This document shows, in pieces, positions 41,165 through 64,000 of a stretch of DNA of 64,000 nt. Both the position numbers and the translations under genes were made by a program. Under the pieces are notes generated by a model that was not told the origin of the DNA, searched no databases, and saw only the letters and a program-made list of their open reading frames with translations. This DNA comes from Flavobacteriales bacterium (lineage in GTDB: Bacteria > Bacteroidota > Bacteroidia > Flavobacteriales > UBA7430), in assembly GCA_022425195.1 (NCBI GenBank), contig JAKMFX010000016.1, positions 11,831 through 75,830 on the forward strand, read 5' to 3'. Numbering within the stretch: position 1 is the first letter of the stretch; every line of letters begins with the position of its first letter.

Positions 41165-43684
41165 ATGAGACATTCACTTTTTCTTCTTACATTTTTTTTG
41201 TTTCAGAGCTACTCTGCGTTTGCGCAGAAGCATAAGGTAGATTCTAAACCTTATAATCATCGATTTTGTGCTGCGGATCACTTTCATGATCATAGAATGC
41301 AAACGGATAAGACCTACGCTTTGCATTACGAAAAGAGTCGAAGAGGCATGAAAAACGTTCAAAATACATCTTATCGTTTAGCTTCCGGTGTTTATCAAGT
41401 TCCCGTTGTAGTTCATATTATGCATAAGGGTGAGTCTGTGGGTATGGGGACGAATATTTCCGATGAAGAGGTAAAGGATGGTATACGTAATTTAAATAAT
41501 TTTTGGAGAAAAGTGTCTAAGTCTAATGGTGATGGAAATGGCGTTGACATGGAGATTGAATTTGCGCTGGCGGTTCAGGATGAAAATGGAAATTGTACCA
41601 ACGGTATTGTTCGCAAAGATATGAGTGCTGTAATTCCCTATGTTAACTTTGGGGTTAATGCAGATAATTCCGACGGAATACCAGACCATGATGATGATTT
41701 AGAGATTAATTCACTCAAAGAATACAGTCATTGGGATCCCACAAAATACTACAACATTTGGTTGGTGGATGAAATTGATAACAGTGATTGTTCGAGTGAC
41801 TATTTTACGGCAGGGTATGCATATTATGCTTCTTCACACGGAAAAGATTCGGATGGTTCTGTTGTTTTGTTCTGCTCTTTTACTGACGAATCTGATGTCA
41901 CCTTGGCTCATGAAATAGGGCATGCATTTAATTTGCCACATACCTTTGATGGTGATGAAAATGATGGAACCTACCAATGTGGCGATGATGGAATCGATGA
42001 TACTCCAAAACACATAAGAACCATGTTTATAGATGACTTGTATGAGGATTGTGATAATACGGATGAGAATTCTTGTGATCCAAACTTTAACATTCAAATG
42101 TCGCCAACGCATAAAGGGAACGGAACCCACCAGGACCATGTGCTTAATTACATGGATTATTCGGGCTGTGCGAGCGAATTCACCTATGGACAAAGAGTAG
42201 TAGCAAAGTCTGCCTTGATAAACGAAAGAGCTTCATTCCTCGGTGAAAATGGAAATAAAGCACTACTTCCTCCCGCAACACCTCAGGTAGGCTTCTCAGC
42301 TTCTTCCTCTGTAGTCTGCATGGGGAGTTCAGTAAGATTTACAGATCAGTCAACTTGTATTCCCAACAGCTATACCAATGAGGCTTTAGACGAGATTTCA
42401 TTCACGTGGATTTTTGATAATGGCATAAATACACCTATTCAATCTACAGATCAGAATCCCGAAATCATTTTTAATCATTCGGGTGCTTACCATGTAACTT
42501 TGGAAGTCACAAATTCTTTTGGCACGAGTCGTTTAAACCAACCCAACTTCATACTAGTTTCTGAATTACTCGAAGGCGCTTGTAGCTCATCGAGTTTAAA
42601 TCATAGTGGAGATTACGACCTGGGTGTAACCCTTGTAACTTTATATACACTAGACCATGCCACAAACACCTTTATACCGGAAAGTTCAATGCAAGATTTT
42701 TCCTGCTCTCAAAACACTATTTTAACTAAGGGAGCGCTTTACAATCTTAGTGCGACTTATGTGGCTGATGAATATGATGATCAGTTTCTAGAAATTTGGA
42801 TTGATTGGGACAATAGCGGCACATTTGATCTTGAAAATAACGAAGAAGTTAATGAACTCATCTTAAGTGATCAGATATCTAAAGGTAAAGAAGGATCGGC
42901 TTCAATAGATTTTATCATTCCCGTTGAATCTGTTGTCAATCGTCTTTTGCGAATGAGGGTGATTTCAAATTCAAGTGCTTCGCCAGAAGTATGTGGAAAA
43001 CAAGTAGCACAAAGAGCCGATGACTATGGTGTATTTGTAAGAGAAGTGATAAAGGGATGTATGAATGAGGTGGCATGTAATTATAATGAAGAGGCTATTG
43101 AGGAGAATGGTTCTTGTATTGTCCCCACATCTTGTGACTTATGTGATGCAGGTCAAATAAAAATAGACGCTTCTTTAGATGGGGTTTGTGAGAGTTGCCA
43201 AGATGGAGCGATCATAAGCAATGATGCTGATGTTGATGGCGTGTGTGATGCTGATGAGGTGGCTGGCTGTAAAGATGAAAAAGCCTGTAATTATGATCTT
43301 AGATCAACTACAGACAGAGTCGACAGTCTTTGTATCTATCCCACAGAAGTCTATTTAGATTGTTCTGGAGCATGTCTCAATGATGCTGATGCCGATGGTG
43401 TTTGTGATGAAGAGATGGGTGTTTACGAATTCGACGACTTAGGGCTATTGGTATACCCAAACCCTACTGACGAAATTCTTTATTTAATGAGTGAATTCGC
43501 TCACGAAATGATACATGTAGAATTGATGACGATTACAGGTAGATCAATTTCTGCCAGGGAATTGAAAAATATTGAGGGCAACACAGTTGTCGACTTGAGC
43601 GTAGGGCATTTATCGACTGGTTTGTATCTGTTGAAGGTATCTAACGATAAGCAATCGAATATTGTTCCTTGGATAAAAAAATAG
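41165..43684 (+). CDS. Secreted M43 (pappalysin/cytophagalysin-type) zinc metalloprotease with PKD, GEVED-like, Cys-repeat/TSP3-like and T9SS C-terminal domains
   Basis: 839 aa with signal peptide ...SAFAQ. The zinc site is HEIGHAFNLPHTF. A PKD-like block (VRFTDQS...YHVTLEVTN) and a WIDWDNSGTF...RMRV block are present. Residues GCMNEVACNY...DADADGVCDEE map to nt 43054-43415. The tail YPNPTDEILYL...GLYLLKV is a T9SS sorting domain. Confidence 0.8.
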   Translation: MRHSLFLLTFFLFQSYSAFAQKHKVDSKPYNHRFCAADHFHDHRMQTDKTYALHYEKSRRGMKNVQNTSYRLASGVYQVPVVVHIMHKGESVGMGTNISDEEVKDGIRNLNNFWRKVSKSNGDGNGVDMEIEFALAVQDENGNCTNGIVRKDMSAVIPYVNFGVNADNSDGIPDHDDDLEINSLKEYSHWDPTKYYNIWLVDEIDNSDCSSDYFTAGYAYYASSHGKDSDGSVVLFCSFTDESDVTLAHEIGHAFNLPHTFDGDENDGTYQCGDDGIDDTPKHIRTMFIDDLYEDCDNTDENSCDPNFNIQMSPTHKGNGTHQDHVLNYMDYSGCASEFTYGQRVVAKSALINERASFLGENGNKALLPPATPQVGFSASSSVVCMGSSVRFTDQSTCIPNSYTNEALDEISFTWIFDNGINTPIQSTDQNPEIIFNHSGAYHVTLEVTNSFGTSRLNQPNFILVSELLEGACSSSSLNHSGDYDLGVTLVTLYTLDHATNTFIPESSMQDFSCSQNTILTKGALYNLSATYVADEYDDQFLEIWIDWDNSGTFDLENNEEVNELILSDQISKGKEGSASIDFIIPVESVVNRLLRMRVISNSSASPEVCGKQVAQRADDYGVFVREVIKGCMNEVACNYNEEAIEENGSCIVPTSCDLCDAGQIKIDASLDGVCESCQDGAIISNDADVDGVCDADEVAGCKDEKACNYDLRSTTDRVDSLCIYPTEVYLDCSGACLNDADADGVCDEEMGVYEFDDLGLLVYPNPTDEILYLMSEFAHEMIHVELMTITGRSISARELKNIEGNTVVDLSVGHLSTGLYLLKVSNDKQSNIVPWIKK

Positions 43685-44647: not shown

Positions 44648-46234
44648 TTATTCCCTTACTGTGGTGATTTTAAAATCATCGTATTTGATGATTTGAACGG
44701 ACTGATTGCGTGCGCCATCTCTTCTTCTTCGCGGGGCATTAAAATCGAAATTCATATTTAAGAGATTCATGGGCTCAAGGTACACGCCTAGAGAAACTGT
44801 TCCGTATTCATTTAACATCGATAGGAAGTAGTAAGTGATGTCAAATCCTGCAAAGGCGAAACGTTCATTTGGAGCTTTCCGAGTGGATTCTTGGTAGTTC
44901 TTAACAAAGTAATGCGTCAAGGTGTCTTGGTAAGATAGAAATCCACTGTTGGGAATGTGTACATCTAAATTCATCAAATACGTGTAATCCAATTCTTTAA
45001 ATTTGTACCATTCTGCCATTCCGAAAACAATAAGAGAGCTGTCTCTAGTGGCATTGAGCTTGGTGAGAAGGTCTGTCACAAAAGCTTTTTCTGTGGAAGG
45101 GATTAAAAACACATTTTTAGCTGCCATAGAATCGATTTCATGATGTATGGAGTCGATTACGGCACCCTCTACGACTATTTCTTTGTAATTTGAGGCAGAA
45201 TCAAGATCAAAGCCAGAAAGCATCCTAGATGCGTTTATTTCATCTTCTTTGGTATTTCTTCTCACCACTGTGATGCATTGTTCTGCATAAAGCCCCGAAA
45301 TGTAATCCGAAAGATAGGTTACCTGTCTTTCGGAAGTCGGTATGACTTGATAAGCATTTGGGCTGTTTACCGTAAGATTATTTTTAGTAGATAGTGGGGC
45401 AATGATGGGGGTTTTTCTTCGGCCAAGTAGTTCAGCTGCAATTTTGAAGTTTTTTGAATAGAAAGGCCCCACTACGAGATCCATATCATTAAAAGCGCTT
45501 TTAGTAACCAAGTCAAAGGTTATATTCGGATCATTTTGGGTATCAAAAACGTGAACATTTATGTTCATACCAGCTTTGTTGAGACTGTCAATGGCAATTT
45601 TGGCTCCCGAATAAAAATCCAATGCATAATGTGTTTTCTTATAAATTTCAGTTTCATTGTCCAGGTCCTGGTAGACTTCAATCGTATCGTTTTTGTCAAG
45701 ATACAAAGGCAGTAAAAAGGCAATGTTGTAGGACTCTTTTCTACTGAATTTAGAGGTTCGGCTTTTGAATTTTTCAATAAATCTCAATCCATCCTGACGA
45801 ATTTCAATTTCATCTTCATAAGCATTTATGACCATAAAATCATCTTTGACTTCTTCTACAACCAACGGAATTTTGATGAAATTACCCGGTCTAAAGCCTT
45901 TTGTTAAAGTAGGGTTAAGTGCTAGTAATTCTTTTTCACCTATGCCGTATTTCGATTTCAAAGAATAGAAAGATTCAAGGGGTCTTACTTTGTGAAGTGT
46001 GTAGGCAATAGTATCAGAATTTTTATAGGTAGAGGGGATAAAGATGTTCATCCCTTGATGTAAACCTCTCTTTGCTTCAGGGTTCGCTCTAACAATATCT
46101 TGGATGCTGATGTTGTACTTCTTTGACAGGCTGTAAAGGGTTTCTCCATTTTTAACACCATGGTCGATTTGCGCCATTGCAAGTGAGCTCAGGCATAAGA
46201 AAAGGGCAATAAGAGCAAGTTTTAGCTTAGGCAT
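44648..46234 (-). CDS. LysM x2 plus periplasmic-binding-protein (type 1)-like domain protein
   Basis: 528 aa with a signal peptide and two LysM repeats (GETLYSLSKKYNISIQDIVRANP and ESFYSLKSKYGIGEKELLALNP). The remainder is PBP1-like. Confidence 0.7.
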   Translation of the reverse strand: MPKLKLALIALFLCLSSLAMAQIDHGVKNGETLYSLSKKYNISIQDIVRANPEAKRGLHQGMNIFIPSTYKNSDTIAYTLHKVRPLESFYSLKSKYGIGEKELLALNPTLTKGFRPGNFIKIPLVVEEVKDDFMVINAYEDEIEIRQDGLRFIEKFKSRTSKFSRKESYNIAFLLPLYLDKNDTIEVYQDLDNETEIYKKTHYALDFYSGAKIAIDSLNKAGMNINVHVFDTQNDPNITFDLVTKSAFNDMDLVVGPFYSKNFKIAAELLGRRKTPIIAPLSTKNNLTVNSPNAYQVIPTSERQVTYLSDYISGLYAEQCITVVRRNTKEDEINASRMLSGFDLDSASNYKEIVVEGAVIDSIHHEIDSMAAKNVFLIPSTEKAFVTDLLTKLNATRDSSLIVFGMAEWYKFKELDYTYLMNLDVHIPNSGFLSYQDTLTHYFVKNYQESTRKAPNERFAFAGFDITYYFLSMLNEYGTVSLGVYLEPMNLLNMNFDFNAPRRRRDGARNQSVQIIKYDDFKITTVRE

Positions 46235-46367: not shown

Positions 46368-47096
46368 TTATTTGACAACGGTCATTTGTTTGGTCAGTTT
46401 TTGATCACCAGACACTAAGTTGTAGTAATAAATACCTGCCTCAAGATTCGAAGCAATCATCTCAACTTTATGAGACCCTGCATTAAAGTTTTTGTTAGCC
46501 AATAACATTACCTCTTGTCCGAGATTGTTATATAGACCAAGGTATACATCATTTTTTTGTGGTAAGTAGAAGTTTATTTCTGTCTGCACGGCCACTGGGT
46601 TCGGAACGTTTTGGAACAATTCTAACTCTTGTGCTAACACTTCTTGGGCATTAATTTCTGACACAATAGAAATTTCGTCTTTGTTGTAAGTGTCATCTCC
46701 TCTTTCAAAAGTAGAGACTTCAAGTGAAACCAATTCATTTTTTGATTTCTTCCACAGCTTAAGGTTGAACTTTTCTGCTTTTGCCAGTCCTTCCTTTTCT
46801 TTAGTGTATTCGTCATCACCCCATAGCGCAAGTCCGGTATGTTCCCCGACGTAAACAACGCTTGAAACCATATTTCCCTGTGAGTCGTATGCGGCAATTT
46901 CATCGCCAATCTCTGGCTTAGCATCTCCCCATGAAGAATCCAAGATTAACAGTGTGTGGTTTTCACCTGTATTGACAGCTTTTGCAAATCGTTTTGTATC
47001 AAATGTCTTTCGTAAGTCTTGCGCCATTGCATTTGAGGTAAATAAACCCAATGCGAATAAGAGGCTAGCTCCTTTGATCCAGTTAATTTTTTTCAT
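46368..47096 (-). CDS. Small T9SS cargo protein: one NTG...WGDD module plus T9SS C-terminal sorting domain
   Basis: 242 aa with signal peptide ...NAMAQ. The block NTGENHTLLIL...GDEIAAY...GLALWGDDEYT is homologous to N-terminal modules of the 55819 and 58980 proteins. The tail NVPNPVAVQTEINFYL...GIYYYNLV...VVK is a T9SS sorting domain. Confidence 0.7.
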   Translation of the reverse strand: MKKINWIKGASLLFALGLFTSNAMAQDLRKTFDTKRFAKAVNTGENHTLLILDSSWGDAKPEIGDEIAAYDSQGNMVSSVVYVGEHTGLALWGDDEYTKEKEGLAKAEKFNLKLWKKSKNELVSLEVSTFERGDDTYNKDEISIVSEINAQEVLAQELELFQNVPNPVAVQTEINFYLPQKNDVYLGLYNNLGQEVMLLANKNFNAGSHKVEMIASNLEAGIYYYNLVSGDQKLTKQMTVVK

Positions 47097-55818: not shown

Positions 55819-58773
55819 ATGAAGAAGTTAGCTTTATTTCTTTTTGGTGTCTTTGCGACCACTTTTACGGTGAACGCTCAGATTACTTCTGCCTCATTCA
55901 CGACTCCCGTGAATACAGGTGCAAACATGACCGTTGGTATGAATGCCACTAAATTCGATCAATTCGAAGGCGGAACTATCGGTGCTTTTTATGATTTGAA
56001 TGGTGATGGTACTCTACAATGTGTAGGTTCTGAAGCTATTTTAACAGGATTTTTTGGTCTTGCCATTTGGGGTGATGACTCATCTACTCCTGAAACAGAT
56101 GGTCTTGCCTCTGGTGCAGTTCCACAATTTGCTATCTTACACGAAGGTGACGTAATCTTGATTGACGAGATTCCTCAGTTTACTGGTTACGTGACTAATG
56201 GTATGGCTAACATTACCGATGCTAACTTAACATCTGCTGTTGCAGGATGTACTGACGCTAGTGCATGTAATGCAATGGCTATGTACTCTGACGTGACTTA
56301 TTCTGATGATGGTTCTTGTACTTACGCTTCTACAGGTTATGACTGTGATGGTGTTTGTTTGGTAGATACCGACAACGATGGTGTTTGTGATGAGTTTGAG
56401 GTTGCAGGTTGTCAAGATGCTTCTGCTTGTAACTACGACGCTTTGGCTACAGATTCTGATGGTTCATGTGATTTCCCTCAAATGTACTACGATTGTGCGG
56501 GTCAATGTATCAGTGATGTAGATGCTGATGGTGTATGTGATGAACTTGAAGTAGAAGGATGTCAAGACGAAGCTTACGATAACTATGATGCTTCTGCAAC
56601 TGATGCAGGTACATGTACAGGTCTTTTAGGTTGTACAGATTCTTTGTATTTTGAATACTACGCTGTTTCGCCCCCAACATGGAGTGATATTGTGGCTGAT
56701 AACTCAGCAGGGTACGAAGTTGATGACATGTCATGTGTTACTGAAATTGTTGTTGGATGTACCAATCCTGCAGCCTCTAATTTCAATCCTGATGCCAATG
56801 TGAACATCACAGATGAGAGTCATCCAGATGCTTGTGTTATTGAAGGTATAAACTTTACTCCACTATCCGATTCTGATAATTCTTCGATAGTTCTTACAGG
56901 AAACAACATGTCTTTGTTGTTCCAGCCAGAAGATGATACTAAGTTCGATGCTGCTAGCTCTACCATAGAAGCTGGTGATATTCTTGCTGCAGTATACGAA
57001 ACAGACCGTTTAGAAAACGAGTTTTTGGGATACTCTGCCATTTCTGGTCTTGCCAATGCAGGTTCAGTTGTCTGGACAGGTGGTCAAGTTGGTTTGGCTG
57101 TATTTGGAGCTGACAACCAGTTAAACAATAACGGTTTTGATACTTATGAAGATCTAAAATGGCAAATTTTAAGAGACGGTGTTGCATATCACGCTTCTGT
57201 TACTTATTTGAACCCATCTTATGACGGTACCTACGAGGATGGTTTGTATGTGGCCGTTAAGTCGATAACTGTTGGTGCTCCTACAAACAATGGCTGTACT
57301 GATGGAACTTACATGGAGTATGACCCATTGGCAACTGAAGATGATGGGTCTTGTTCTACCTTCATATCTGTAGGATGTAATGACAGTCAATTTGTTAACT
57401 ATGCAGGAGCAGATGTTGATGCTGACGCAATTCACGACAATGCCGAAAACTTCGGTGATGCTTTCGGACAAAACTACACTGTTGATTTGAATAATGGCCA
57501 AACTTCAGCTTCTGGTGCGCCTGCTACGATTCATGATGTAGATCTATGTCAGACGCAAGTTCCTGGTTGTACATACCCTTACGCGGGTAACTACGATGAT
57601 GCAGCTACTGAAGATGACGGTTCATGTGACTGGTCTACGTACGCTCTTAAATCGGTTGATCCTGTTACAGGAGAAGTGATCAGTGTAGATTACAGCTTCG
57701 GTGCCGACGACGATGACTCAACCGGCGACTGGAATGGTTCTGATTTCGAATACGCAAATAAATTATACCAAGACGGTAATATGGGTACAGGTCACGTTGT
57801 GACAGACTTAATTGCTTCTTACGACGCGTTTACTTCTCAGTACAAGGCTGACTCTACAAATTTCGCTATTAACGATTCAACATGGAGTGCAGATTACGAT
57901 ACCCTTAATGCCGTTTGGCAACGTACTTACGACGATACTCTTGCTGATGTAGCTTTATGGTTTGCGGCTGATGAGTTGGCTGATTCTATCCAGTTAGCTG
58001 ATACAACTGAGTACTTGTGGAATTTGTACAACGATACTCTTGCTGATGTAGCTGTATGGTTTGCAGCTGATGAGTTGGCTGACTCAATCCAGTTAGCTGA
58101 TACAACAGTGTACTTGTGGGATTTATACAACGATACTCTTGCTGATGTAGCTGTATGGTTTGCTGCTGATGAGGCAGCTGATGCACAAGAATTGGCTGAT
58201 ACCATCGAAGCTATGCAAGCTCGTTATGATGCCAACCATGCTGCTCACCTTGCTTTAGAGGCTAGAATTACTGATTCATTAAATTACCACAGAGCACCAA
58301 TCGAAATTGATTTACACACAGGTTGGAATACAGTTGGTTATTACTTACAACACAGTTCTTCTGTTATTGGTCAGTTTGAGGCTCAATTTGGTTCTGAACT
58401 GGATGTTGCGAATAACATCAATATTGTTAAGAATAACGAAGGTCTATTCTACTGGCCAGACTTCGCATTCGATGGTCTAGTTACGTTAGAGCCTGGTCAA
58501 GGTTATCAAGTACGTGTGAAAGACACGTCAAATGGTAAAGGAGACTTCGTATTCCTTCACGAAATTGATCGTGATGACTACAGAGTTCTTACTCCTACAG
58601 TGCCAGTATGGGCTCTTGAAATGGAAGTTGAGAACCATCCTAACGATATTCGCACTCTTGTACGTGTTGTAAACATGTTAGGTCAAGAGGTGAATCCTGC
58701 TGAACAATTCAACGGTGAAGTATTATTGTACTTGTACAATGACGGAACTGTAGAGAAGAAAATGGTGAAATAA
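55819..58773 (+). CDS. T9SS-secreted modular Cys-repeat protein (984 aa)
   Basis: Signal peptide ...TVNAQ. The protein has two NTG...WGDD-type modules, about 8 GC.D..A.NY...DDGSC repeats interleaved with DxDxDGVCDE (TSP3-like) motifs, and 2.7 copies of a 33-aa repeat. It also has a GWNT.GY...FYWP...GQGY module and a C-terminal beta tail VNMLGQEV...LLYLYNDGTVEKKMVK. Confidence 0.75.
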   Translation: MKKLALFLFGVFATTFTVNAQITSASFTTPVNTGANMTVGMNATKFDQFEGGTIGAFYDLNGDGTLQCVGSEAILTGFFGLAIWGDDSSTPETDGLASGAVPQFAILHEGDVILIDEIPQFTGYVTNGMANITDANLTSAVAGCTDASACNAMAMYSDVTYSDDGSCTYASTGYDCDGVCLVDTDNDGVCDEFEVAGCQDASACNYDALATDSDGSCDFPQMYYDCAGQCISDVDADGVCDELEVEGCQDEAYDNYDASATDAGTCTGLLGCTDSLYFEYYAVSPPTWSDIVADNSAGYEVDDMSCVTEIVVGCTNPAASNFNPDANVNITDESHPDACVIEGINFTPLSDSDNSSIVLTGNNMSLLFQPEDDTKFDAASSTIEAGDILAAVYETDRLENEFLGYSAISGLANAGSVVWTGGQVGLAVFGADNQLNNNGFDTYEDLKWQILRDGVAYHASVTYLNPSYDGTYEDGLYVAVKSITVGAPTNNGCTDGTYMEYDPLATEDDGSCSTFISVGCNDSQFVNYAGADVDADAIHDNAENFGDAFGQNYTVDLNNGQTSASGAPATIHDVDLCQTQVPGCTYPYAGNYDDAATEDDGSCDWSTYALKSVDPVTGEVISVDYSFGADDDDSTGDWNGSDFEYANKLYQDGNMGTGHVVTDLIASYDAFTSQYKADSTNFAINDSTWSADYDTLNAVWQRTYDDTLADVALWFAADELADSIQLADTTEYLWNLYNDTLADVAVWFAADELADSIQLADTTVYLWDLYNDTLADVAVWFAADEAADAQELADTIEAMQARYDANHAAHLALEARITDSLNYHRAPIEIDLHTGWNTVGYYLQHSSSVIGQFEAQFGSELDVANNINIVKNNEGLFYWPDFAFDGLVTLEPGQGYQVRVKDTSNGKGDFVFLHEIDRDDYRVLTPTVPVWALEMEVENHPNDIRTLVRVVNMLGQEVNPAEQFNGEVLLYLYNDGTVEKKMVK
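57928..58200 (+). repeat. Near-perfect 99-nt (33-aa) in-frame tandem repeat, about 2.7 copies
   Basis: The units are 57928-58026, 58027-58125 and 58126 to about 58200. They encode Y[DN]DTLADVA[LV]WFAADELADSIQLADTT[EV]YLW[ND]L. Units 1 and 2 differ at only a few nucleotides. Confidence 0.9.
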
Positions 58774-58979: not shown

Positions 58980-61900
58980 ATGAAGTATTTTACCCCTTCT
59001 ATTAAAGCTTGGTTTCAACTAAGCTTATTGTTTTTCTCATTAGTATCTAATGCTCAGGATTGTGATTTAGATTTTTCCTATACCAATACAGGGTCTAATA
59101 TGATCATCATGGTTAATGGTGATGCCTTACAGAATGAGGTTTTAGGTCAGGGTGATTTTCTGGGAGCTTTCATATATCTTGACGATGTATGGCAATGTGT
59201 GGGATCTATAGAATGGAATGGTGCACAACAAACGCTTGCAGTTTGGGGAAATGACACTGGATCTGGCGTTCAGGATGGGATGATGGCTACTGAGCCAGTA
59301 GTCCTTAAAGCAAAATCTAACGGTGTTATTTATGACGTTTCATATGACCCTGAAATTACTTTTGAAGTTAATGGTATTGAAGTCTTAAACTCGGCATTGT
59401 CTTTTGTACCCTTGTGTGATGATCAAGGGAATGTGTATGGTTGTACCAGCAACAGTTATGAAGAATACAATCCTGAGGCTACGCTCGATGATGGCTCGTG
59501 TAGCACTCTTGGTGTTGTCAATGGGTGTACCATAGCTAATTATGTAGAGTACAATCCACAAGCTACCGTGTATGATGGCTCTTGTCAAACGCTTGCCGTA
59601 TGGGGATGTATGAATGCAGATTACATTGAATTTGATGCGAATGCAAATGTCTCTGATGGGTCTTGCACCACTTTGATCGTAAGTGGATGTACCAATACGA
59701 ATTATATAGAGTTCAGCGCTGCAGCTAATAGTGATGATGGCTCTTGTTCTAATTACAAAATTGAAGGCTGTACCGACTCAAATTTTCTTGAGTTCAGCGT
59801 AACCGCAAATACAGATGATGGTTCATGTGTCACAGCTGCTATTTTAGGTTGTATGAATCCCTTGTATTTAGAATATGATTCGAATGTCAATAAGGATAAT
59901 GGTTCCTGTGCTACATTTATCATTTATGGTTGTATGGATAATGAGGCCTATAATTTCGACCCACAAGCAACCGTGTCTGATGATTCCTGCATAGCGGCTA
60001 TCTATGGCTGTACCAACTCAAACTTCGCTGAATACAACTCAGAAGCGAATACAAATGACGGCTCTTGTGTTACGGCTCTTCTAGTTGGATGTACTGATAT
60101 TTTCTCTTTGAATTACAATCCTATGGCAGAAGTTGATGATGGGTCTTGTGTCAGTGTTGTTTTTGGATGTACCGAAACAACAGCTTTTAACTTTGATGCT
60201 TCAGCCAATTTAAATGATGGTTCTTGTATTGCAAAAGCATATGGATGTATGGATTCAAATGCTTATAATTATGACAGCCAGGCAAATATTGACGACAACT
60301 CTTGTGTTGCTAAGATCAATGGTTGCATGAATCCTCTTTACATGGAGTACAATGCTGTGGCCAATACAGATCCAGGAATGTGCCACATACTTCTCGTATA
60401 CGGATGTATGAATTCAAAAGCTTCCAATTATTTAGAAGATGCATCTATCGATGATGGATCTTGTTATTTTAACGGCTGTATGGATGTGTCTGCAATAAAC
60501 TATGAATCCTATGCAACCAGGAATGATGGGTCTTGTTTGTATATAAACCCATGTGATCTTCCTTCTCAGTATACCGGCAACACCGGTAGTAATATGATTG
60601 TAGGTTTTATTCAGTCCGCCATTGCATCCTTACCCATTACTAATGATCAGGCTTATATCGTTGCCCTGTCTTCCGATCATCGAGTTGTGGGTTCCGTTCA
60701 AATGGATGATTTTGATGGGACGATAGCTGTTTGGGGTGATGATACTGCAACTCCTGAGATTGATGGAGCAAGATCTTTTACTTCTGTTCGGTTACAGCTG
60801 GTCAATTCAAATGTTTTGTACGATATTATGGTTGATGATATTACCTATACGAATAATGATATTGTCTTATTTCAATCTGCAGATTATCAAATCGTAAATT
60901 GTGGAAATGATATGGGATGTACGGATTCTACTGCTGTAAATTATGATCCATTAGCAGAAGTTGATGATAATTCTTGCGTATATCCCGTCTATGGATGTAC
61001 AGATCCTTATGCATTTAACTTCAATCCTTTGGCTGTGATTAATGAGGTCTCAAAAGAGGATGACACCGACCCATGTGCTCCTGTTATTAAGGGCTGTACA
61101 GATTCATCAGCTTTTAATTTTGACAACTCAGCAAATACAGATGACGGTTCATGTATCCCTGTTTTGCTGGGATGTACAGATCAAACTGCTGCAAATTATC
61201 ATCCGCATGCCAATATAGATGATGGTTCATGTGAAGCACAAATCGTTTATTGTAACAACCCAATTGCCCTTAATTACAATCCAAGTCCAGATGAAGAAAC
61301 AAATAAAGGAAACGGAAATGGCAACGGAAATAATAATGGAAATGGAAATGGCTTTAGCGGTTCTAATGCAGGAGGAAATAACGGCTGTATTTATGGAATT
61401 TCTGGTTGTACGAATGAAAATGCCATCAATTACAATCCTGAAGCGGTTGTAGACAAAGGGAATTGTGTGGTCTTAATATCTGGTTGCAACAAGCCCAATG
61501 CCATCAATTATAACCCTGAGGCTAACAAAAATGACGGATCCTGTATCAAGCGCGTCCGGGGTTGTATGGATGAAAATGCCGTAAACTATAATCCGAATGC
61601 GAATGAAGATAAAGGAAATTGTAGGTTAAGAGTGCTTGGTTGTATAAATCCTAAGGCTTTAAATTATAATCCTGATGCCAATAAAAATGACGGTTCCTGT
61701 GAAAGAATCAGATCAGGTTGCATGGATTCCGATGCTATAAATTACAAATCAAATGCCAATGTGGATGATGGGACTTGTATTGAAGTGATTCATGGTTGTA
61801 TGAATCCCAATGCCCTAAACTACCATCCTGAAGCGAATAAAAATGATGGGTCTTGCCAGCGTGCCATTAAAGGGTGTACCAATCCGCTGGCAATAAATTA

Positions 61901-64000
61901 CAAGTCTTCCGCAACCGTTGACAATGGAAGGTGTGTAGTAAAGATTCTCGGCTGTGTAAACCCAAAGGCTTTAAATTACCATCCACAGGCGAATAAAAAT
62001 GACGGTTCTTGTATTGCTGAAATCGGTGGTTGTACAAATGCTTCGAGTCCTAATTATAATTCTTTAGCCAATGCTGATGATGGCTCATGTATTTCTCAGG
62101 TTTTCGGATGTTTGAACCCTAATGCAACCAACTTTGAAGCAAGTGCGAATAGTGATGATGGTTCATGTATCTTCCATACTTCTGGCTGTATGGACAACAC
62201 AGCTCTGAATTTCAATGCATCTGCCACGATAGATGATGAAAGCTGTATTGAGCCCGTATATGGCTGTATCTTTGATTACCCTTTTGTGACAAATTTCAAT
62301 GCCAGTGCCAATGTAAACATGATAAGCAGTTTAGATGCGAATGATCCCTGTCAGTACAGTTTTGGAGCCAGAAAGCGTTCATTAACAAAAGTATGTGTTG
62401 ATACGTCTGCACTGAATTATTTTGCTGCCGCTGATGAGAATTCTGACCTTTACGAAAGCTCTGTAGCATCAAATGTACTTATTGACAATTCGACCTGTGA
62501 TTATGGCCATGGCTGTACAGATCCTTCGGCATTTAATTTTGATGCCAATGCAATTACAGATGACGGTTCCTGTCAGGCTGTCATTGTCGGCTGTATGGAT
62601 ACGAATTATATTGAATACAATCCCCAGGCAAATACCTCTAATTTTGGTTTATGTTTAACGATTAAAGTCTCGGGTTGTACCGATATCAACTCATTTAATT
62701 ACGACGAAACTGCTAATTTTAATGATGAATCGTGTGTTTCTTTTGTTTTCGGTTGTATGGATTCGTCATATCTAGAATACGATTCATCAGCAAATACCAG
62801 CGATGTTTCCCTATGTGTAAGCCAGATAGTAACAGGTTGTACAGACATTAATGCTGTAAGTTATTCAATTACTGCCAATGTGGATGATGGTAGCTGTGTG
62901 TCTGCTGTTTATGGTTGTATAGATACTAACTATTTGGAGTACGATTCACTCGCAAACGTTCACCAATTGGATTTATGTACGAGTCTTAAAATTGAAGGCT
63001 GTACGGATATCGCTTATCTCGAATACTTAACCATTGCATCATGGGATGATGGAAGCTGTATCACTCCAATAGTATACGGTTGTTCACAAGCCAATTATTT
63101 AGAATACGATTCATCAGTAAATACCGATGATGGTTCCTGTTTAAATTTAAGTTCAGAAGGTTGTACAGAGATTAATGCATGGAATTATGACGATTCAGCA
63201 AGTTTAGATGACGGCTCTTGTGTTGATGTGGTTTATGGTTGTATCTCTGCTTTTGCCTCTAATTATGATGAGTCTGCCAACACAGACAATGGTTCATGTA
63301 TTCCCGTGCTAGAAGGTTGTACGGATACGCTTGCGACGAATTACAATATTTTAGCCAATAGCAATGTAGGTTGTATATATCCTATTGAGGGTTGTACAGA
63401 TTTTACCGCTGTAAACTACAATCATTTGGCGAATGTAAATGATGGTACTTGTGAATATTACACTTCTGGATGTACAGATGAAGCGTACCTTGAGTATGAT
63501 CCAAATGCCTTGTATGCAGATGGCTCATGTGAAACATTGATCGTATTGGGTTGTACAAATTCATCATTCATTGAGTTTGATCCTTACGCCAATGAAGATG
63601 ATGGTACTTGTATTACAGTTAGGGTAGAGGGGTGTATGATTCAAAGTGCAGACAATTACTATAATAGAGCAAATGATGACGATGGTTCTTGTTTGTTTGT
63701 GTCTGAAAATGATACTACAGCAGACGTTAACAGTTTTATTAGTGATTTGAATAATCAAGTTCAAGATTGTGCGTCAACACTTGACCCTGTCTATATTGAT
63801 CTTCTCGCCGGATGGAACACCATTGGTTATACGCTGAGAGAACCTCAAGATGTGGTCGAAACACTAGCGTCTATTGTTGATAAAATTAAAATTATCAAAA
63901 ACAATGCTGGAGAGTTTTACTGGCCAGAAATGGGAACCTTTAACCAGATAGGTTCGTTTAAATCTGGACAAGGGTATCTCATTAAAATGAATGAAGCTGA
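58980..64000 (+). CDS. Giant secreted Cys-repeat protein, 5' partial in window (over 1673 codons, continues past nt 64000)
   Basis: From ATG 58980, frame 3 has no stop to the window end; I translated it codon by codon from 61251 on and in sections before that. Signal peptide MKYFTPSIKAWFQLSLLFFSLVSNAQ. The protein has two NTG...WGDD modules, about 47 GC[TM]D..A.NY...AN.DDGSC repeats, and the start of a GWNTIGY...FYWP...GQGY module at the window edge. It is not in the ORF track because it has no stop in the window. Confidence 0.85.
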   Translation, partial: MKYFTPSIKAWFQLSLLFFSLVSNAQDCDLDFSYTNTGSNMIIMVNGDALQNEVLGQGDFLGAFIYLDDVWQCVGSIEWNGAQQTLAVWGNDTGSGVQDGMMATEPVVLKAKSNGVIYDVSYDPEITFEVNGIEVLNSALSFVPLCDDQGNVYGCTSNSYEEYNPEATLDDGSCSTLGVVNGCTIANYVEYNPQATVYDGSCQTLAVWGCMNADYIEFDANANVSDGSCTTLIVSGCTNTNYIEFSAAANSDDGSCSNYKIEGCTDSNFLEFSVTANTDDGSCVTAAILGCMNPLYLEYDSNVNKDNGSCATFIIYGCMDNEAYNFDPQATVSDDSCIAAIYGCTNSNFAEYNSEANTNDGSCVTALLVGCTDIFSLNYNPMAEVDDGSCVSVVFGCTETTAFNFDASANLNDGSCIAKAYGCMDSNAYNYDSQANIDDNSCVAKINGCMNPLYMEYNAVANTDPGMCHILLVYGCMNSKASNYLEDASIDDGSCYFNGCMDVSAINYESYATRNDGSCLYINPCDLPSQYTGNTGSNMIVGFIQSAIASLPITNDQAYIVALSSDHRVVGSVQMDDFDGTIAVWGDDTATPEIDGARSFTSVRLQLVNSNVLYDIMVDDITYTNNDIVLFQSADYQIVNCGNDMGCTDSTAVNYDPLAEVDDNSCVYPVYGCTDPYAFNFNPLAVINEVSKEDDTDPCAPVIKGCTDSSAFNFDNSANTDDGSCIPVLLGCTDQTAANYHPHANIDDGSCEAQIVYCNNPIALNYNPSPDEETNKGNGNGNGNNNGNGNGFSGSNAGGNNGCIYGISGCTNENAINYNPEAVVDKGNCVVLISGCNKPNAINYNPEANKNDGSCIKRVRGCMDENAVNYNPNANEDKGNCRLRVLGCINPKALNYNPDANKNDGSCERIRSGCMDSDAINYKSNANVDDGTCIEVIHGCMNPNALNYHPEANKNDGSCQRAIKGCTNPLAINYKSSATVDNGRCVVKILGCVNPKALNYHPQANKNDGSCIAEIGGCTNASSPNYNSLANADDGSCISQVFGCLNPNATNFEASANSDDGSCIFHTSGCMDNTALNFNASATIDDESCIEPVYGCIFDYPFVTNFNASANVNMISSLDANDPCQYSFGARKRSLTKVCVDTSALNYFAAADENSDLYESSVASNVLIDNSTCDYGHGCTDPSAFNFDANAITDDGSCQAVIVGCMDTNYIEYNPQANTSNFGLCLTIKVSGCTDINSFNYDETANFNDESCVSFVFGCMDSSYLEYDSSANTSDVSLCVSQIVTGCTDINAVSYSITANVDDGSCVSAVYGCIDTNYLEYDSLANVHQLDLCTSLKIEGCTDIAYLEYLTIASWDDGSCITPIVYGCSQANYLEYDSSVNTDDGSCLNLSSEGCTEINAWNYDDSASLDDGSCVDVVYGCISAFASNYDESANTDNGSCIPVLEGCTDTLATNYNILANSNVGCIYPIEGCTDFTAVNYNHLANVNDGTCEYYTSGCTDEAYLEYDPNALYADGSCETLIVLGCTNSSFIEFDPYANEDDGTCITVRVEGCMIQSADNYYNRANDDDGSCLFVSENDTTADVNSFISDLNNQVQDCASTLDPVYIDLLAGWNTIGYTLREPQDVVETLASIVDKIKIIKNNAGEFYWPEMGTFNQIGSFKSGQGYLIKMNEA
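59439..60545 (+). repeat. Cys-repeat array 1 of giant ORF (14 units of 72-93 nt, mostly 78-84)
   Basis: Units start with GG(T/A/C)TGT(A/T).. codons (G-C-T/M), for example at 59439, 59523, 59604 and 59685. Confidence 0.85.
60915..63700 (+). repeat. Cys-repeat array 2 of giant ORF (about 33 units)
   Basis: Twelve consecutive units keep an exact 78-nt phase from 61404 to 62339, with starts at 61404, 61482, 61560, 61638, 61716, 61794, 61872, 61950, 62028, 62106, 62184 and 62262. Confidence 0.85.

What the first reader, a model, noticed from the sequence alone, without database searches (positions are those of the whole stretch)
59049..59400. Unnamed NTG...WGDD domain present five times in three proteins
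A module of about 100 aa recurs with the signature [NT]-T-G-x-N-[MH]-[TSI], then 10-20 aa, G-D-x-[IL]-x-A, a further spacer, then [LI]-A-[VIL]-[WF]-G-[DNA]-D-x2-[TS]-x3-[DN]-G. It occurs in the small 242-aa T9SS protein (nt 46690-46990, minus strand). It occurs twice in the 984-aa protein (about 55900-56200 and 56885-57235) and twice in the giant ORF (59049-59400 and 60565-60910). In the two large proteins each copy precedes a Cys-repeat array, giving a duplicated supermodule of domain plus array. I cannot assign it to a known family; a beta-sandwich ligand-binding head is a reasonable guess.
Basis: seen in the sequence. Interest (0 to 1): 0.6.

Follow-up and report, generated by a model that had tools for sequence, protein, structure and literature searches.

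The report
Unnamed beta-sandwich domain of secreted proteins
The five segments are real copies of a roughly 120-residue all-beta domain that is common in secreted surface proteins of marine Flavobacteriales and related phyla, has no model in Pfam-A or NCBIfam, and has an unknown biochemical role.

Summary
Exactly five copies of one ~120-aa domain lie in three proteins of the window, at the stated coordinates, and the similarity is far beyond chance.

- **Statistics.** Pairwise phmmer E-values run down to 1e-15. Profile-profile probabilities are 92-98% among four copies. The divergent fifth copy scores 59.6 bits against a family HMM built without it, versus 9.4 bits for the best of 1000 shuffles.
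- **Fold.** AlphaFold2 gives a confident eight-strand beta-sandwich (pLDDT 91).
- **No known family.** Nothing in Pfam-A, NCBIfam, PHROGs or PDB sequences covers it. Foldseek against PDB and BFVD finds only generic Ig/transthyretin-like sandwiches (TM ≤0.5).
- **Not rare.** An exhaustive profile search found 5885 cluster representatives (408 at E≤1e-30). They carry 1-15 copies per protein and come from Bacteroidota, Ignavibacteriota and Calditrichota MAGs. Most have a type IX secretion tail; others carry SprB, PKD, fn3 or HYDIN-type Ig domains.
- **Function is inferred only.** A conserved polar set (T, N, D-D, T, D, E, N) is retained equally in N-terminal, internal and tail-adjacent copies. 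One widely conserved protein displays the domain alone. I favour a calcium-stabilised adhesion or binding module; a plain spacer is the main rival.

It is a sound candidate for a new domain family, not a new kind of system.

The parts
59058..59423 (+). Copy G1 of the domain. It covers giant ORF aa 27-148 and starts right after the predicted signal peptide (…SLVSNA|QDC…).
   Evidence: Alignment A1; HMM i-E 4.5e-48; AlphaFold2 model pLDDT 91, eight strands.
60546..60911 (+). Copy G2 of the domain (giant ORF aa 523-644), internal, between the two Cys-repeat arrays.
   Evidence: HMM i-E 1.6e-43; phmmer G1-G2 E 1.4e-15; hhalign 98.5%.
55879..56256 (+). Copy M1 of the domain (p984 aa 21-146), right after the signal peptide.
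   Evidence: HMM i-E 1.7e-44; hhalign 98.1% with the G1 group.
56845..57303 (+). Copy M2 of the domain (p984 aa 343-495). It is the most divergent copy, with a ~20-aa insertion and a degraded WGDD block (FGADN).
   Evidence: HMM i-E 3.2e-40; leave-one-out 28.4 and 59.6 bits against a maximum of 9.4 for shuffles.
46644..47018 (-). Copy S1 of the domain (p242 aa 27-151), the only domain between the signal peptide and the secretion tail.
   Evidence: HMM i-E 3.7e-47; full-length AlphaFold2 model pLDDT 84 with two beta domains.
46368..47096 (-). p242 coding sequence (242 aa): signal peptide, one domain copy, then a T9SS type-A C-terminal domain.
   Evidence: ORF list; translation; hundreds of 242-246-aa orthologs in marine metagenomes.
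46380..46604 (-). T9SS type-A C-terminal sorting domain of p242 (aa 165-239).
   Evidence: PF18962 E 4e-8 and TIGR04183 E 5e-9; own CTD HMM 108.5 bits.
55819..58773 (+). p984 coding sequence (984 aa). Order of parts: signal peptide, M1, Cys-rich region, M2, three Cys units, three 33-aa repeats, GW-GY domain, conserved tail.
58980..64000 (+). Giant ORF, at least 1673 aa, cut by the end of the window. Orthologs end about 20 aa further on. Order of parts: signal peptide, G1, 14 Cys units, G2, about 33 Cys units, GW-GY domain.
   Evidence: Translation; Cys map; ortholog C-termini in L005, L007 and L009.
59442..60536 (+). Cys-repeat array 1 of the giant ORF (aa 155-519): 14 units of GC[TM][DN]..A.NY…A..DDGSC, i.e. 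Cx18C plus a 6-7-aa linker.
   Evidence: Cys positions and regex.
60918..63692 (+). Cys-repeat array 2 of the giant ORF (aa 647-1571): about 33 units, with a GNGNGN low-complexity insert at aa 775-791.
56248..56835 (+). Cys-rich region after M1 in p984 (aa 144-339). It mixes canonical units with DxDxDG-type (TSP3-like) stretches.
   Evidence: weak TSP3_bac hit E 0.039.
57295..57627 (+). Short Cys-repeat region after M2 in p984 (aa 493-603).

Best explanation
**Shown.**
- The five segments are copies of one autonomous extracellular domain of ~115-125 residues that folds as an eight-strand beta-sandwich.
- It belongs to a large family that has no model in Pfam-A or NCBIfam, found in secreted proteins of the FCB group (Bacteroidota, Ignavibacteriota, Calditrichota).
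- Family members usually end in a type IX secretion type-A tail. They combine the domain with SprB repeats, PKD, fn3, HYDIN/ASH-type Ig domains or the Cys mini-repeat seen here.
- In this window the domain opens the mature chain of two large secreted proteins and recurs once inside each. Each copy is followed by a run of Cys mini-repeats (two cysteines per unit).
- In p242 it is the only passenger on a T9SS anchor.

**Inferred.**
- The Cx18C spacing suggests one disulfide per mini-repeat unit, giving a stapled stalk; this was not tested.
- The conserved polar set lies in the N-terminal segment and in the loops after strands 4 and 6. It comprises T11, N14, D65, D66, T69, D73, E79 and N105 in domain numbering. 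From the strand order alone (not checked on coordinates, and the orientation of strand 1 is uncertain), these elements would fall at one pole of the sandwich.
- I read this as a calcium-coordinating site that holds the fold rigid in sea water and may contact a ligand, most likely a glycan or another surface.
- The domain would then act as a multivalent adhesion or binding unit: held out on Cys-repeat stalks in the large proteins, and tethered directly to the outer membrane in p242.
For: - **Homology and specificity:**
- **Fold:** (pLDDT 91, pTM 0.85).
- **Family size and copy number:** (5885 representatives at E≤1e-3, 2667 at ≤1e-10, 408 at ≤1e-30). In one search, all 145 newly returned representatives among the top 150 carry 1-15 copies under a domain-only HMM.
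- **Secreted context:** (Por_Secre_tail in 28 of 41 proteins, SprB in 9, HYDIN/ASH Ig in 5, PKD in 4, only one enzyme).
- **Taxa:**
- **Conserved polar residues (327 instances below 60% identity):** T11 0.93, N14 0.83, D65 0.76, D66 0.85, T69 0.77, D73 0.70, G74 0.98, E79 0.76, N105 0.79. This is more polar conservation than a passive spacer needs.
- **A role of its own:** p242 carries nothing but this domain. It is conserved at 45-97% identity in hundreds of marine clusters.
- **G1/G2 subfamily cysteines:** these copies have one Cys near the start and one near the end of the domain (C28/C146, C525/C641). A disulfide between them, with the two termini meeting, is possible but was not tested.
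Against: - No ligand, metal or binding partner was tested, and I had no model coordinates, so the clustering of the conserved residues is deduced from strand order only.
- The key residues are kept equally in N-terminal, internal and tail-adjacent copies (0.90, 0.90, 0.93). That fits a fold-intrinsic structural site as well as a binding site.
- Long tandem arrays interleaved with Ig domains (P0121-P0125) look like extender regions.
- The domain is almost never attached to enzymes, unlike typical carbohydrate-binding modules.
- No lectin or CBM appears among the fold matches.
- p984 and the giant ORF have no recognisable T9SS tail, so how they are attached to the surface is unknown.
Confidence: 0.5

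Rival explanations
1. The domain is a passive spacer or extender. It would be an Ig-like building block that only adds length and rigidity to surface fibres, as BIg or PKD domains do. Its conserved acidic residues would bind calcium purely to stiffen the fold or the joints between domains. It would have no ligand of its own.
For: - Up to 15 copies per protein, interleaved with HYDIN/ASH Ig domains.
- Key residues are equally conserved whatever the position in the protein.
- Fold matches are only generic Ig or transthyretin-like sandwiches.
- Partner domains are other structural repeats.
Against: - p242 consists only of this domain plus a secretion anchor and is strongly conserved across marine Flavobacteriales. 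A spacer with nothing to space makes little sense.
- The first copy sits at the very N-terminus of the mature protein in a large share of family members.
- Eight well-conserved polar positions are unusual for a pure spacer.
Confidence: 0.3
2. The domain is a very remote member of an already described family that the tools available here could not reach. Candidates are a PA14-like or other calcium-dependent lectin or CBM, or a transthyretin-like (CarboxypepD_reg / Cna-B) domain.
For: - Foldseek's best PDB matches are small transthyretin-like sandwiches: 3e8v (E 5.8e-3, TM 0.38/0.51) and TTR-52 (probability 0.92).
- The diverse profile gives a weak match (E 0.12) to a PA14-like stretch of an RTX protein, aligning the WGDD…DG block with 'DDGytilIDG'.
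Against: - No family recurs when 82 diverse members are scanned against Pfam-A or NCBIfam at E≤1. The most frequent family hits 2 of 82.
- No PDB sequence hit is below E 3.8e-3, and those that appear are short and implausible.
- All TM-scores are ≤0.5.
Confidence: 0.12
3. The domain serves secretion or anchoring rather than function outside the cell. It would be an adaptor that helps the T9SS tail to be recognised, cleaved or attached.
For: In many family members the last copy ends 81-95 residues before the C-terminus, directly against the type-A tail. p242 is exactly this pair.
Against: - Most copies (300 of 433 classified) are internal and far from any tail.
- The giant ORF and p984 carry two copies each but no recognisable tail.
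- Profile-profile comparison shows no relation between the domain and the tail.
- From published work (my own knowledge), T9SS tails alone suffice for secretion of reporter proteins.
Confidence: 0.06
4. The resemblance is a chance or compositional effect of Asp/Asn/Gly/Thr-rich secreted proteins, and there is no domain.
For: The proteins are compositionally biased. The M2-G2 and M2-S1 comparisons are weak on their own.
Against: - Shuffles of M2 reach at most 9.4 bits against 59.6 observed.
- The HMM finds only the five copies among 535 window ORFs.
- AlphaFold2 gives a confident fold.
- Thousands of relatives share the same boundaries.
Confidence: 0.01

Closest known systems
Generic extracellular Ig-like or transthyretin-like beta-sandwich modules of bacterial surface proteins (PKD, fn3, BIg, Cna-B / CarboxypepD_reg)
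   Same: - Size of ~100-125 aa and an all-beta sandwich fold.
- Modular use in very large secreted proteins, including tandem arrays.
- Co-occurrence with PKD, fn3, SprB and HYDIN-type Ig domains.
   Different: - No sequence model of any of these families matches.
- Structural similarity is low (TM ≤0.5).
- It has its own signature: NTGxN[MH]T … GDxIGxF … C.G … [AT][AV]WGDDxxTxxxDG…GE … Y..NG.
Choice-of-anchor D / HYDIN-ASH Ig-like domains (NF012200, PF22544, PF15780)
   Same: They are found in the same giant proteins of Calditrichota and other MAGs. NCBI names those proteins after this domain.
   Different: The two domains occupy alternating, non-overlapping stretches. In P0121, for example, our domain covers 84-208 and 422-546, while the Ig domains cover 214-308 and 316-411. 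The window proteins have no choice-of-anchor D match at all.
PA14 and other calcium-dependent lectin domains of adhesins
   Same: As an analogy only: a beta domain with adjacent conserved aspartates (D65-D66) plus a conserved Asn, carried on long repetitive stalks of surface adhesins. There is one weak local profile match to an RTX adhesin (E 0.12).
   Different: No Pfam PA14 match in 82 members, a smaller domain, and no fold match. Neither calcium binding nor sugar binding has been shown.
T9SS type-A C-terminal domain (Por_Secre_tail, PF18962 / TIGR04183)
   Same: It is also a small beta-sandwich. It directly follows the domain in p242 and in many family members.
   Different: It is a separate domain, with no profile-profile relation (0.6% probability). 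The tail sits C-terminal to our domain, not within it.
Truncated EGF-like module of mammalian perforin-2 / MPEG1 (relevant to the neighbouring Cys repeat, not to the domain itself)
   Same: One unit of the Cys repeat aligns with residues 1-29 of 6sb1, GGCTNVDSPNFNFQANMDDDSC. The Cys spacing and the N[FY]N..AN.DD.SC pattern are the same (E 1.3e-3). [quoted passage not shown]
   Different: It occurs once in MPEG1 and about 47 times in tandem here. The match is short and only marginally significant, and no Pfam model links the two.

Membership tests
Any Pfam-A family | A sequence match to a curated profile at or near its gathering score, covering the domain. | tested here: not met
   - The three window proteins show no hit over the domain at E≤1.
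- Fifteen divergent full-length relatives show none either.
- When 82 diverse domain instances are scanned singly at E≤1, the most frequent family hits 2 of 82.
Any NCBIfam family, including the choice-of-anchor series | A sequence match to an NCBIfam profile covering the domain. | tested here: not met
   Searches show no recurrent family. The choice_anch_D hits in P0121 and P0122 lie between the copies of our domain, not on them.
T9SS type-A cargo (applies to the host proteins) | An N-terminal signal peptide plus a C-terminal Por_Secre_tail domain. | tested here: met
   Met for p242 only: PF18962 E 4e-8 and TIGR04183 E 5e-9 at aa 165-239.
T9SS type-A or type-B cargo (p984 and the giant ORF) | A C-terminal Por_Secre_tail or CHU_C / type-B domain. 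| tested here: not met
   - No hit in Pfam or NCBIfam at E≤1 to 10.
- No hit with a 69-sequence CTD HMM.
- Giant-ORF orthologs stop about 20 aa after the GW-GY domain.
- p984-type proteins share a short conserved tail of unknown nature.
Solved structure families (PDB) | Sequence-profile E<1e-3 over most of the domain, or Foldseek E<1e-3 with TM>0.5. | tested here: not met
   - Profile searches: best E 3.8e-3 over 48 residues of titin Ig domains.
- Foldseek against PDB: best E 5.8e-3, TM 0.38/0.51.
- Foldseek against BFVD: best E 2.4e-3, TM 0.42.
Transthyretin-like / prealbumin-like sandwich | A seven- or eight-strand sandwich with the same strand order, shown by a significant structural alignment. 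| tested here: inconclusive
PA14 / calcium-dependent lectin | A match to PF07691, the PA14 fold, and a calcium site built on a cis Asp-Asp pair that binds sugar. | tested here: not met
   No PF07691 hit and no PA14 structure among the fold matches. There is only a 50-residue local match at E 0.12. Calcium and sugar binding cannot be tested with these tools.
Carbohydrate-binding module or lectin in general | Demonstrated glycan binding; usually attached to carbohydrate-active enzymes. | not testable with these tools
   Binding cannot be tested here. The usual enzyme partnership is absent: among 41 relatives the only enzyme found is one Peptidase_S8.
Phage protein families (PHROGs) / viral origin | A match to a PHROG profile, or presence on viral contigs. 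| tested here: not met
   No PHROG hit. The scan of IMG/VR viral contigs, which used a single conserved peptide pattern, found no relative.

The most novel reading that the evidence does not exclude
The domain founds a new family of calcium-dependent glycan-binding (lectin or CBM-like) modules. Uncultured planktonic Flavobacteriales and other T9SS-bearing phyla would use it to attach to algal polysaccharides, particles or other cells. It would be displayed singly on the outer membrane (p242) and multivalently on disulfide-stapled stalks tens of nanometres long (the giant ORF). The tandem cluster of paralog genes seen in related genomes would be a diversifying set of attachment specificities.
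Probability: 0.2. Interest if true: 0.65.

Novelty: new variant of a known kind. Interest (0 to 1): 0.4.

Why it matters
- **Annotation gap.** Proteins carrying this domain are currently labelled only 'hypothetical', 'T9SS type A sorting domain-containing' or after a neighbouring domain. The family nevertheless has hundreds to thousands of 50%-identity clusters and up to 15 copies per protein. A curated model would annotate a sizeable block of dark sequence in marine and sediment metagenomes.
- **A tractable test case.** The most abundant marine heterotrophs include uncultured Flavobacteriales whose surface proteins are largely uncharacterised. p242 is a minimal, conserved protein made of one domain plus an anchor, which makes it an easy target for structure and binding studies.
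- **Limits.** If the domain turns out to be only an Ig-like spacer, the gain is annotation, not new biology.

Tried and rejected
1. **Known-family assignment.** I scanned Pfam-A, NCBIfam and PHROGs with the window proteins, with 15 divergent relatives and with 82 single domain instances. Nothing covered the domain.
2. **PDB by sequence.** I searched with two profiles and a consensus sequence. Only noise came back: titin Ig, a PL7 lyase, P450cin and an RTX stretch at E 0.12.
4. **Same as choice-of-anchor D?** Rejected. The coordinates interleave without overlap.
5. **A diverged T9SS tail, or related to the GW-GY domain?** Rejected by hhalign, at 0.6% and 0.2% probability.
6. **Intramolecular isopeptide or ester cross-link, as in Gram-positive adhesins?** Rejected from the conservation table. 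There is no conserved Lys or Gln partner.
7. **Beta-gamma-crystallin or dockerin-type calcium motifs.** I considered these from memory because of the D-D-x-x-T pattern. Neither family showed recurrent or significant support in the scans (a lone Dockerin_1 hit at E 0.066, 1 of 82 members), so I did not pursue them.
8. **Contact prediction.** Mean-field DCA on 507 instances was meant to check whether the conserved residues cluster. Gap artefacts dominated the output, so I did not use it.
9. **Second word-indexed homolog search.** Run with the diverse profile, it returned only 12 hits and added nothing.
10. **Gene context of p242.** The downstream LysM/Peripla_BP_6 gene is conserved in ~60%-identical orthologs but not in the ~50% group, so it is not a reliable functional clue.
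11. **Literature.** Two full-text searches found no description of this domain or of the Cys repeat in T9SS proteins.
Full report
**What is in the window.**
- The region holds three genes with predicted signal peptides.
  - p242 lies at 46368-47096 on the minus strand.
  - p984 lies at 55819-58773 on the plus strand.
  - A giant ORF starts at ATG 58980 on the plus strand and runs off the window end after 1673 codons.
- The genes between them are housekeeping genes: TsaD, TamB, CoaE, a Sua5/YrdC-family protein and transaldolase. This is therefore ordinary chromosome, not an island.
- G+C content is 33-42% throughout.

**Checking the observation.**
  - They share 23-34% identity with G1.
  - Nine columns are invariant, in the blocks N-T-G-x-N, the A-x-W-G-x-D strand end, and a later D/E-G turn.

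| Copy | Window nt | Strand |
|---|---|---|
| G1 | 59058-59423 | + |
| G2 | 60546-60911 | + |
| M1 | 55879-56256 | + |
| M2 | 56845-57303 | + |
| S1 | 47018-46644 | − |

- Pairwise phmmer E-values (database size 1) run from 1.4e-15 for G1-G2 to 8e-3 for M2-G2.
- An HMM of the five copies, searched against all 535 stop-to-stop ORFs of the six frames, finds these five at i-E 1e-40 to 1e-48. Nothing else scores below E 0.7.
I built ortholog-group profiles from related genomes and ran hhalign.
  - G1-G2 gave 98.5%, G1-M1 98.1%, G2-M1 97.7%, M1-S1 96.5% and G1/G2-S1 92-93%.
  - M2 is the weak member: 83.5% with G1, 82% with M1, 21% with S1 and 0.3% with G2.
- Leave-one-out tests settle M2.
  - An HMM of the other four copies scores it at 28.4 bits.
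  - A family HMM built from 552 instances, none M2-like, scores it at 59.6 bits (E 1.5e-20).
  - The best of 1000 shuffles of M2 reaches 9.4 bits.
The written signature is only approximate for M2 (LTG; FGADN, one residue short), G2 (no G-D-x-[IL]-x-A block) and S1 (E-G).

**The layout around the copies.**
- The giant ORF has the order: signal peptide, G1 (aa 27-148), 14 Cys units (aa 155-519), G2 (aa 523-644), about 33 Cys units (aa 647-1571), then a C-terminal 'GW-GY' domain from aa 1609.
- Each Cys unit is GC[TM][DN]..A.NY…A..DDGSC: two cysteines 18 residues apart plus a 6-7-residue linker.
- p984 has the order: signal peptide, M1, a mixed Cys-rich region (aa 144-339), M2, three Cys units (aa 493-603), three 33-residue repeats (aa 703-800), a GW-GY domain (aa 833-900) and a conserved tail.
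- 'Domain then Cys array, twice' is therefore correct for both proteins.

**Fold.**
- I built an alignment of 92 sequences: the window copies plus metagenomic relatives.
- With that alignment, AlphaFold2 predicts G1 at mean pLDDT 91 and pTM 0.85.
  - The model has eight strands (14-19, 34-41, 44-52, 58-64, 82-87, 90-95, 107-110, 115-121) and one short helix.
- Full-length p242 is predicted at pLDDT 84 as two beta domains, this one plus the secretion tail.

**Is it a known family? No, as far as these tools reach.**
- Pfam-A and NCBIfam have no model over the domain in the window proteins.
  - The only solid hit is the T9SS type-A tail of p242 (PF18962 E 4e-8, TIGR04183 E 5e-9, aa 165-239).
- Fifteen divergent full-length relatives give no hit over the domain.
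- I scanned 82 domain instances, mutually below 40% identical, one by one at E≤1. No family recurs in Pfam (the maximum is 2 of 82) or in NCBIfam.
- PHROGs gives nothing.
- PDB sequences searched with two profiles and a consensus give only short, implausible matches.
- Foldseek against the PDB gives no match at E<1e-3.
  - The best is 3e8v, an 82-residue Bacteroides fragilis fragment (E 5.8e-3, TM 0.38/0.51).
  - TTR-52 and transthyretin follow at TM 0.28-0.40.
- Foldseek against BFVD is equally weak.
- The full p242 model recalls only generic tandem-Ig proteins at TM 0.2-0.3.

**The family is large.**
- A word-indexed search found 276 relatives.
  - Most are 242-246-residue p242 orthologs from marine metagenomes.
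- The exhaustive profile search of 1.84 billion cluster representatives returned 5885 at E≤1e-3, 2667 at ≤1e-10 and 408 at ≤1e-30.
  - That profile included secretion-tail columns, so the lower-scoring part of the list may contain tail-only matches.
  - Under a domain-only HMM, all 145 newly returned representatives among the top 150 carry the domain, with 1-15 copies each, in proteins of up to 7635 residues.
- Two placements recur: directly after the signal peptide, and 81-95 residues before the C-terminus against a type-A tail.
- In 41 relatives without Cys repeats, the partner domains were as follows:

| Partner domain | Proteins (of 41) |
|---|---|
| Por_Secre_tail | 28 |
| SprB repeats | 9 |
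| HYDIN/ASH Ig | 5 |
| PKD | 4 |
| Laminin_G_3 | 3 |
| fn3 | 3 |
| BACON | 2 |
| Fib_succ_major | 2 |
| Peptidase_S8 (the only enzyme) | 1 |

- Where a source gives an organism, it is a Flavobacteriales, Bacteroidales, Bacteroidota, Ignavibacteriota or Calditrichota MAG.
- No source name refers to this domain.
- In two giant proteins that NCBI calls 'choice-of-anchor D domain-containing', the choice-of-anchor D / HYDIN Ig domains and our domain alternate without overlapping.
- No relative was found on viral contigs.

**Within the window's own lineage.**
- The genome scan found 29 loci, nearly all in uncultured marine Flavobacteriales such as MED-G21, UBA6772, X_MB68 and the AH-700-E14 isolate assembly.
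- The p984-to-giant gene order is conserved.
- In X_MB68 and Co_bin_775, further genes with two or three copies each follow directly. The window therefore probably ends at the start of a tandem cluster of paralogs.
- Giant-ORF orthologs in L005, L007 and L009 end about 20 residues after the point where the window stops, with no secretion tail.
- A 69-sequence tail HMM and Pfam both fail on p984 and its paralogs.
  - These paralogs instead share a short tail, HPND.R.LV.VVN.LGQEV…LYLY.DGTVEK.
- Only p242 is a demonstrated T9SS type-A cargo.

**What the conservation says.**
- I measured conservation over 327 instances below 60% identity, in G1 domain numbering:

| Position | Most frequent residue | Frequency |
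|---|---|---|
| 11 | T | 0.93 |
| 14 | N | 0.83 |
| 49 | G | 0.97 |
| 63 | W | 0.84 |
| 64 | G | 0.92 |
| 65 | D | 0.76 |
| 66 | D | 0.85 |
| 69 | T | 0.77 |
| 73 | D | 0.70 |
| 74 | G | 0.98 |
| 79 | E | 0.76 |
| 102 | Y or F | 0.97 |
| 105 | N | 0.79 |

- The polar residues lie in the N-terminal segment and in the loops after strands 4 and 6.
- My reading of the strand order (short hairpin links force alternate directions) puts these elements, and both chain termini, at one pole of the sandwich.
  - This was not checked on coordinates.
  - It relies on the orientation of strand 1, which follows a long link and is uncertain.
  - G1 and G2 types have one Cys near each end of the domain (C28/C146, C525/C641). 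A disulfide joining the termini would be compatible with this reading, but was not tested.
- A cluster of Asp, Asn, Thr and Glu oxygens suggests a calcium site. This is inference.
- The key residues are kept equally in N-terminal (0.90, n=69), internal (0.90, n=300) and tail-adjacent (0.93, n=64) copies.
  - The site is therefore intrinsic to the domain and not special to a 'head' position.

**Most likely role.**
- I favour a calcium-stabilised binding or adhesion module, for two reasons.
  - p242 displays nothing but this domain, yet it is conserved across hundreds of marine clusters.
  - Eight conserved polar positions are more than a passive spacer needs.
- In the giant ORF the domain would sit at the tip, and again a third of the way along, of a stalk of about 47 Cys mini-modules.
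- The main rival is a plain extender domain whose calcium site only stiffens the chain.
  - The long interleaved arrays and the lack of enzyme partners favour that view.
- I put these at about 0.5 and 0.3.
  - A missed remote family gets about 0.12.
  - A secretion-adaptor role gets about 0.06.
  - Chance similarity gets about 0.01.

**Novelty and score.**
- This is a real, widespread and apparently uncurated domain family of a familiar general kind: a beta-sandwich module of secreted bacterial surface proteins.
- It is not a new kind of system, and a specialist would not be greatly surprised.
- It is a good candidate for a new family model, and p242 is an attractive minimal target for experiments.
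- Interest: 0.4.

Noticed in passing
window 59442-60536 and 60918-63692 (giant ORF aa 155-519 and 647-1571); also p984 aa 493-603: The Cys mini-repeat (about 47 units of GC[TM][DN]..A.NY…A..DDGSC) has no Pfam, NCBIfam or PHROG model. One unit matches the first 29 residues of the crystallised perforin-2/MPEG1 fragment 6sb1 (GGCTNVDSPNFNFQANMDDDSC, E 1.3e-3), with the same Cys spacing. By position that stretch appears to fall in what the structure paper calls a truncated EGF-like domain (PMC6989145). This may be a shared module between bacterial surface proteins and an animal immune effector.
   Followed up: partly
window 58315-58518 (p984 aa 833-900) and 63804-64000 (giant ORF aa 1609 onward): A second unnamed conserved domain, IDL..GWN.[IV]GY … [IV]KNN.G.[FV]YWP…N.[IL]G.[LF].PGQGY. 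It is shared by p984, the giant ORF and their paralogs. It also recurs, often twice, next to the NTG…WGDD domain in unrelated FCB proteins (consensus of A6). There is no Pfam hit and no relation to the main domain.
   Followed up: partly
window 58636-58770 (p984 aa 940-984); paralogs in L011, L012, L015, L020, L022, L030: A conserved C-terminal tail, HPND.R.LV.VVN.LGQEV…G.VL.YLY.DGTVEK. It looks like the last strands of a T9SS tail but is shorter, and neither Pfam, NCBIfam nor my own CTD HMM recognises it. It may be a lineage-specific sorting signal.
   Followed up: partly
window 64000 (end); L005, L007, L009: Orthologs of the giant ORF stop about 20 residues after the point where the window ends, directly after the GW-GY domain, with no secretion tail. 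The window ORF is therefore nearly complete (about 1690 aa), and how it is exported or anchored is unexplained.
   Followed up: yes
L002 and L011 (X_MB68 contig CALSTU010000002.1), L005 (Co_bin_775): In related MAGs the p984 and giant-ORF orthologs are followed by further genes with one to three copies of the domain each (three more genes in X_MB68). This forms a tandem paralog cluster of at least five genes that would lie just beyond the window. In L002 both the giant ortholog and the p984 ortholog are broken: the giant into two overlapping ORFs, p984 truncated to 535 aa. A frameshift or assembly error is the probable cause.
   Followed up: partly
window 57925-58218 (p984 aa 703-800): Three tandem 33-residue repeats, YNDTLADVA[LV]WFAADELADSIQLADTT.YLW.L, acidic and probably helical, lie between the Cys region and the GW-GY domain.
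   Followed up: no
window 44648-46234 (minus strand), just downstream of p242: A 528-aa LysM + Peripla_BP_6 protein follows p242 on the same strand. The same pair is seen next to a ~60%-identical p242 ortholog (L031, L032) but not next to the ~50% group (L035).
   Followed up: partly
window 41165-43684 (plus strand): An 839-aa T9SS cargo carrying a Peptidase_M43/reprolysin-like metalloprotease, PKD, GEVED and Por_Secre_tail domains. It shows that this genome uses type-A T9SS tails for other secreted proteins.
   Followed up: yes
window 56365-56410 (p984 aa ~183-197) and 61302-61352 (giant ORF aa 775-791): Two local oddities. The first is a DTDNDGVCDE stretch resembling a bacterial thrombospondin type-3 calcium-binding repeat (TSP3_bac, E 0.039). 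The second is a GNGNGNGNNNGNGNG low-complexity insert interrupting array 2.
   Followed up: no
L021 (CAZWOY010000020.1) and proteins P0121-P0125: Giant proteins of 2781-6410 residues, two of them named as Calditrichota or unclassified 'bacterium' MAGs and the other three unnamed. They carry 10-15 copies of the domain; in P0121 and P0122, which were scanned, the copies alternate with choice-of-anchor D / HYDIN Ig domains, FG-GAP repeats and OS_HP2-like segments. They contain no Cys repeat.
   Followed up: partly
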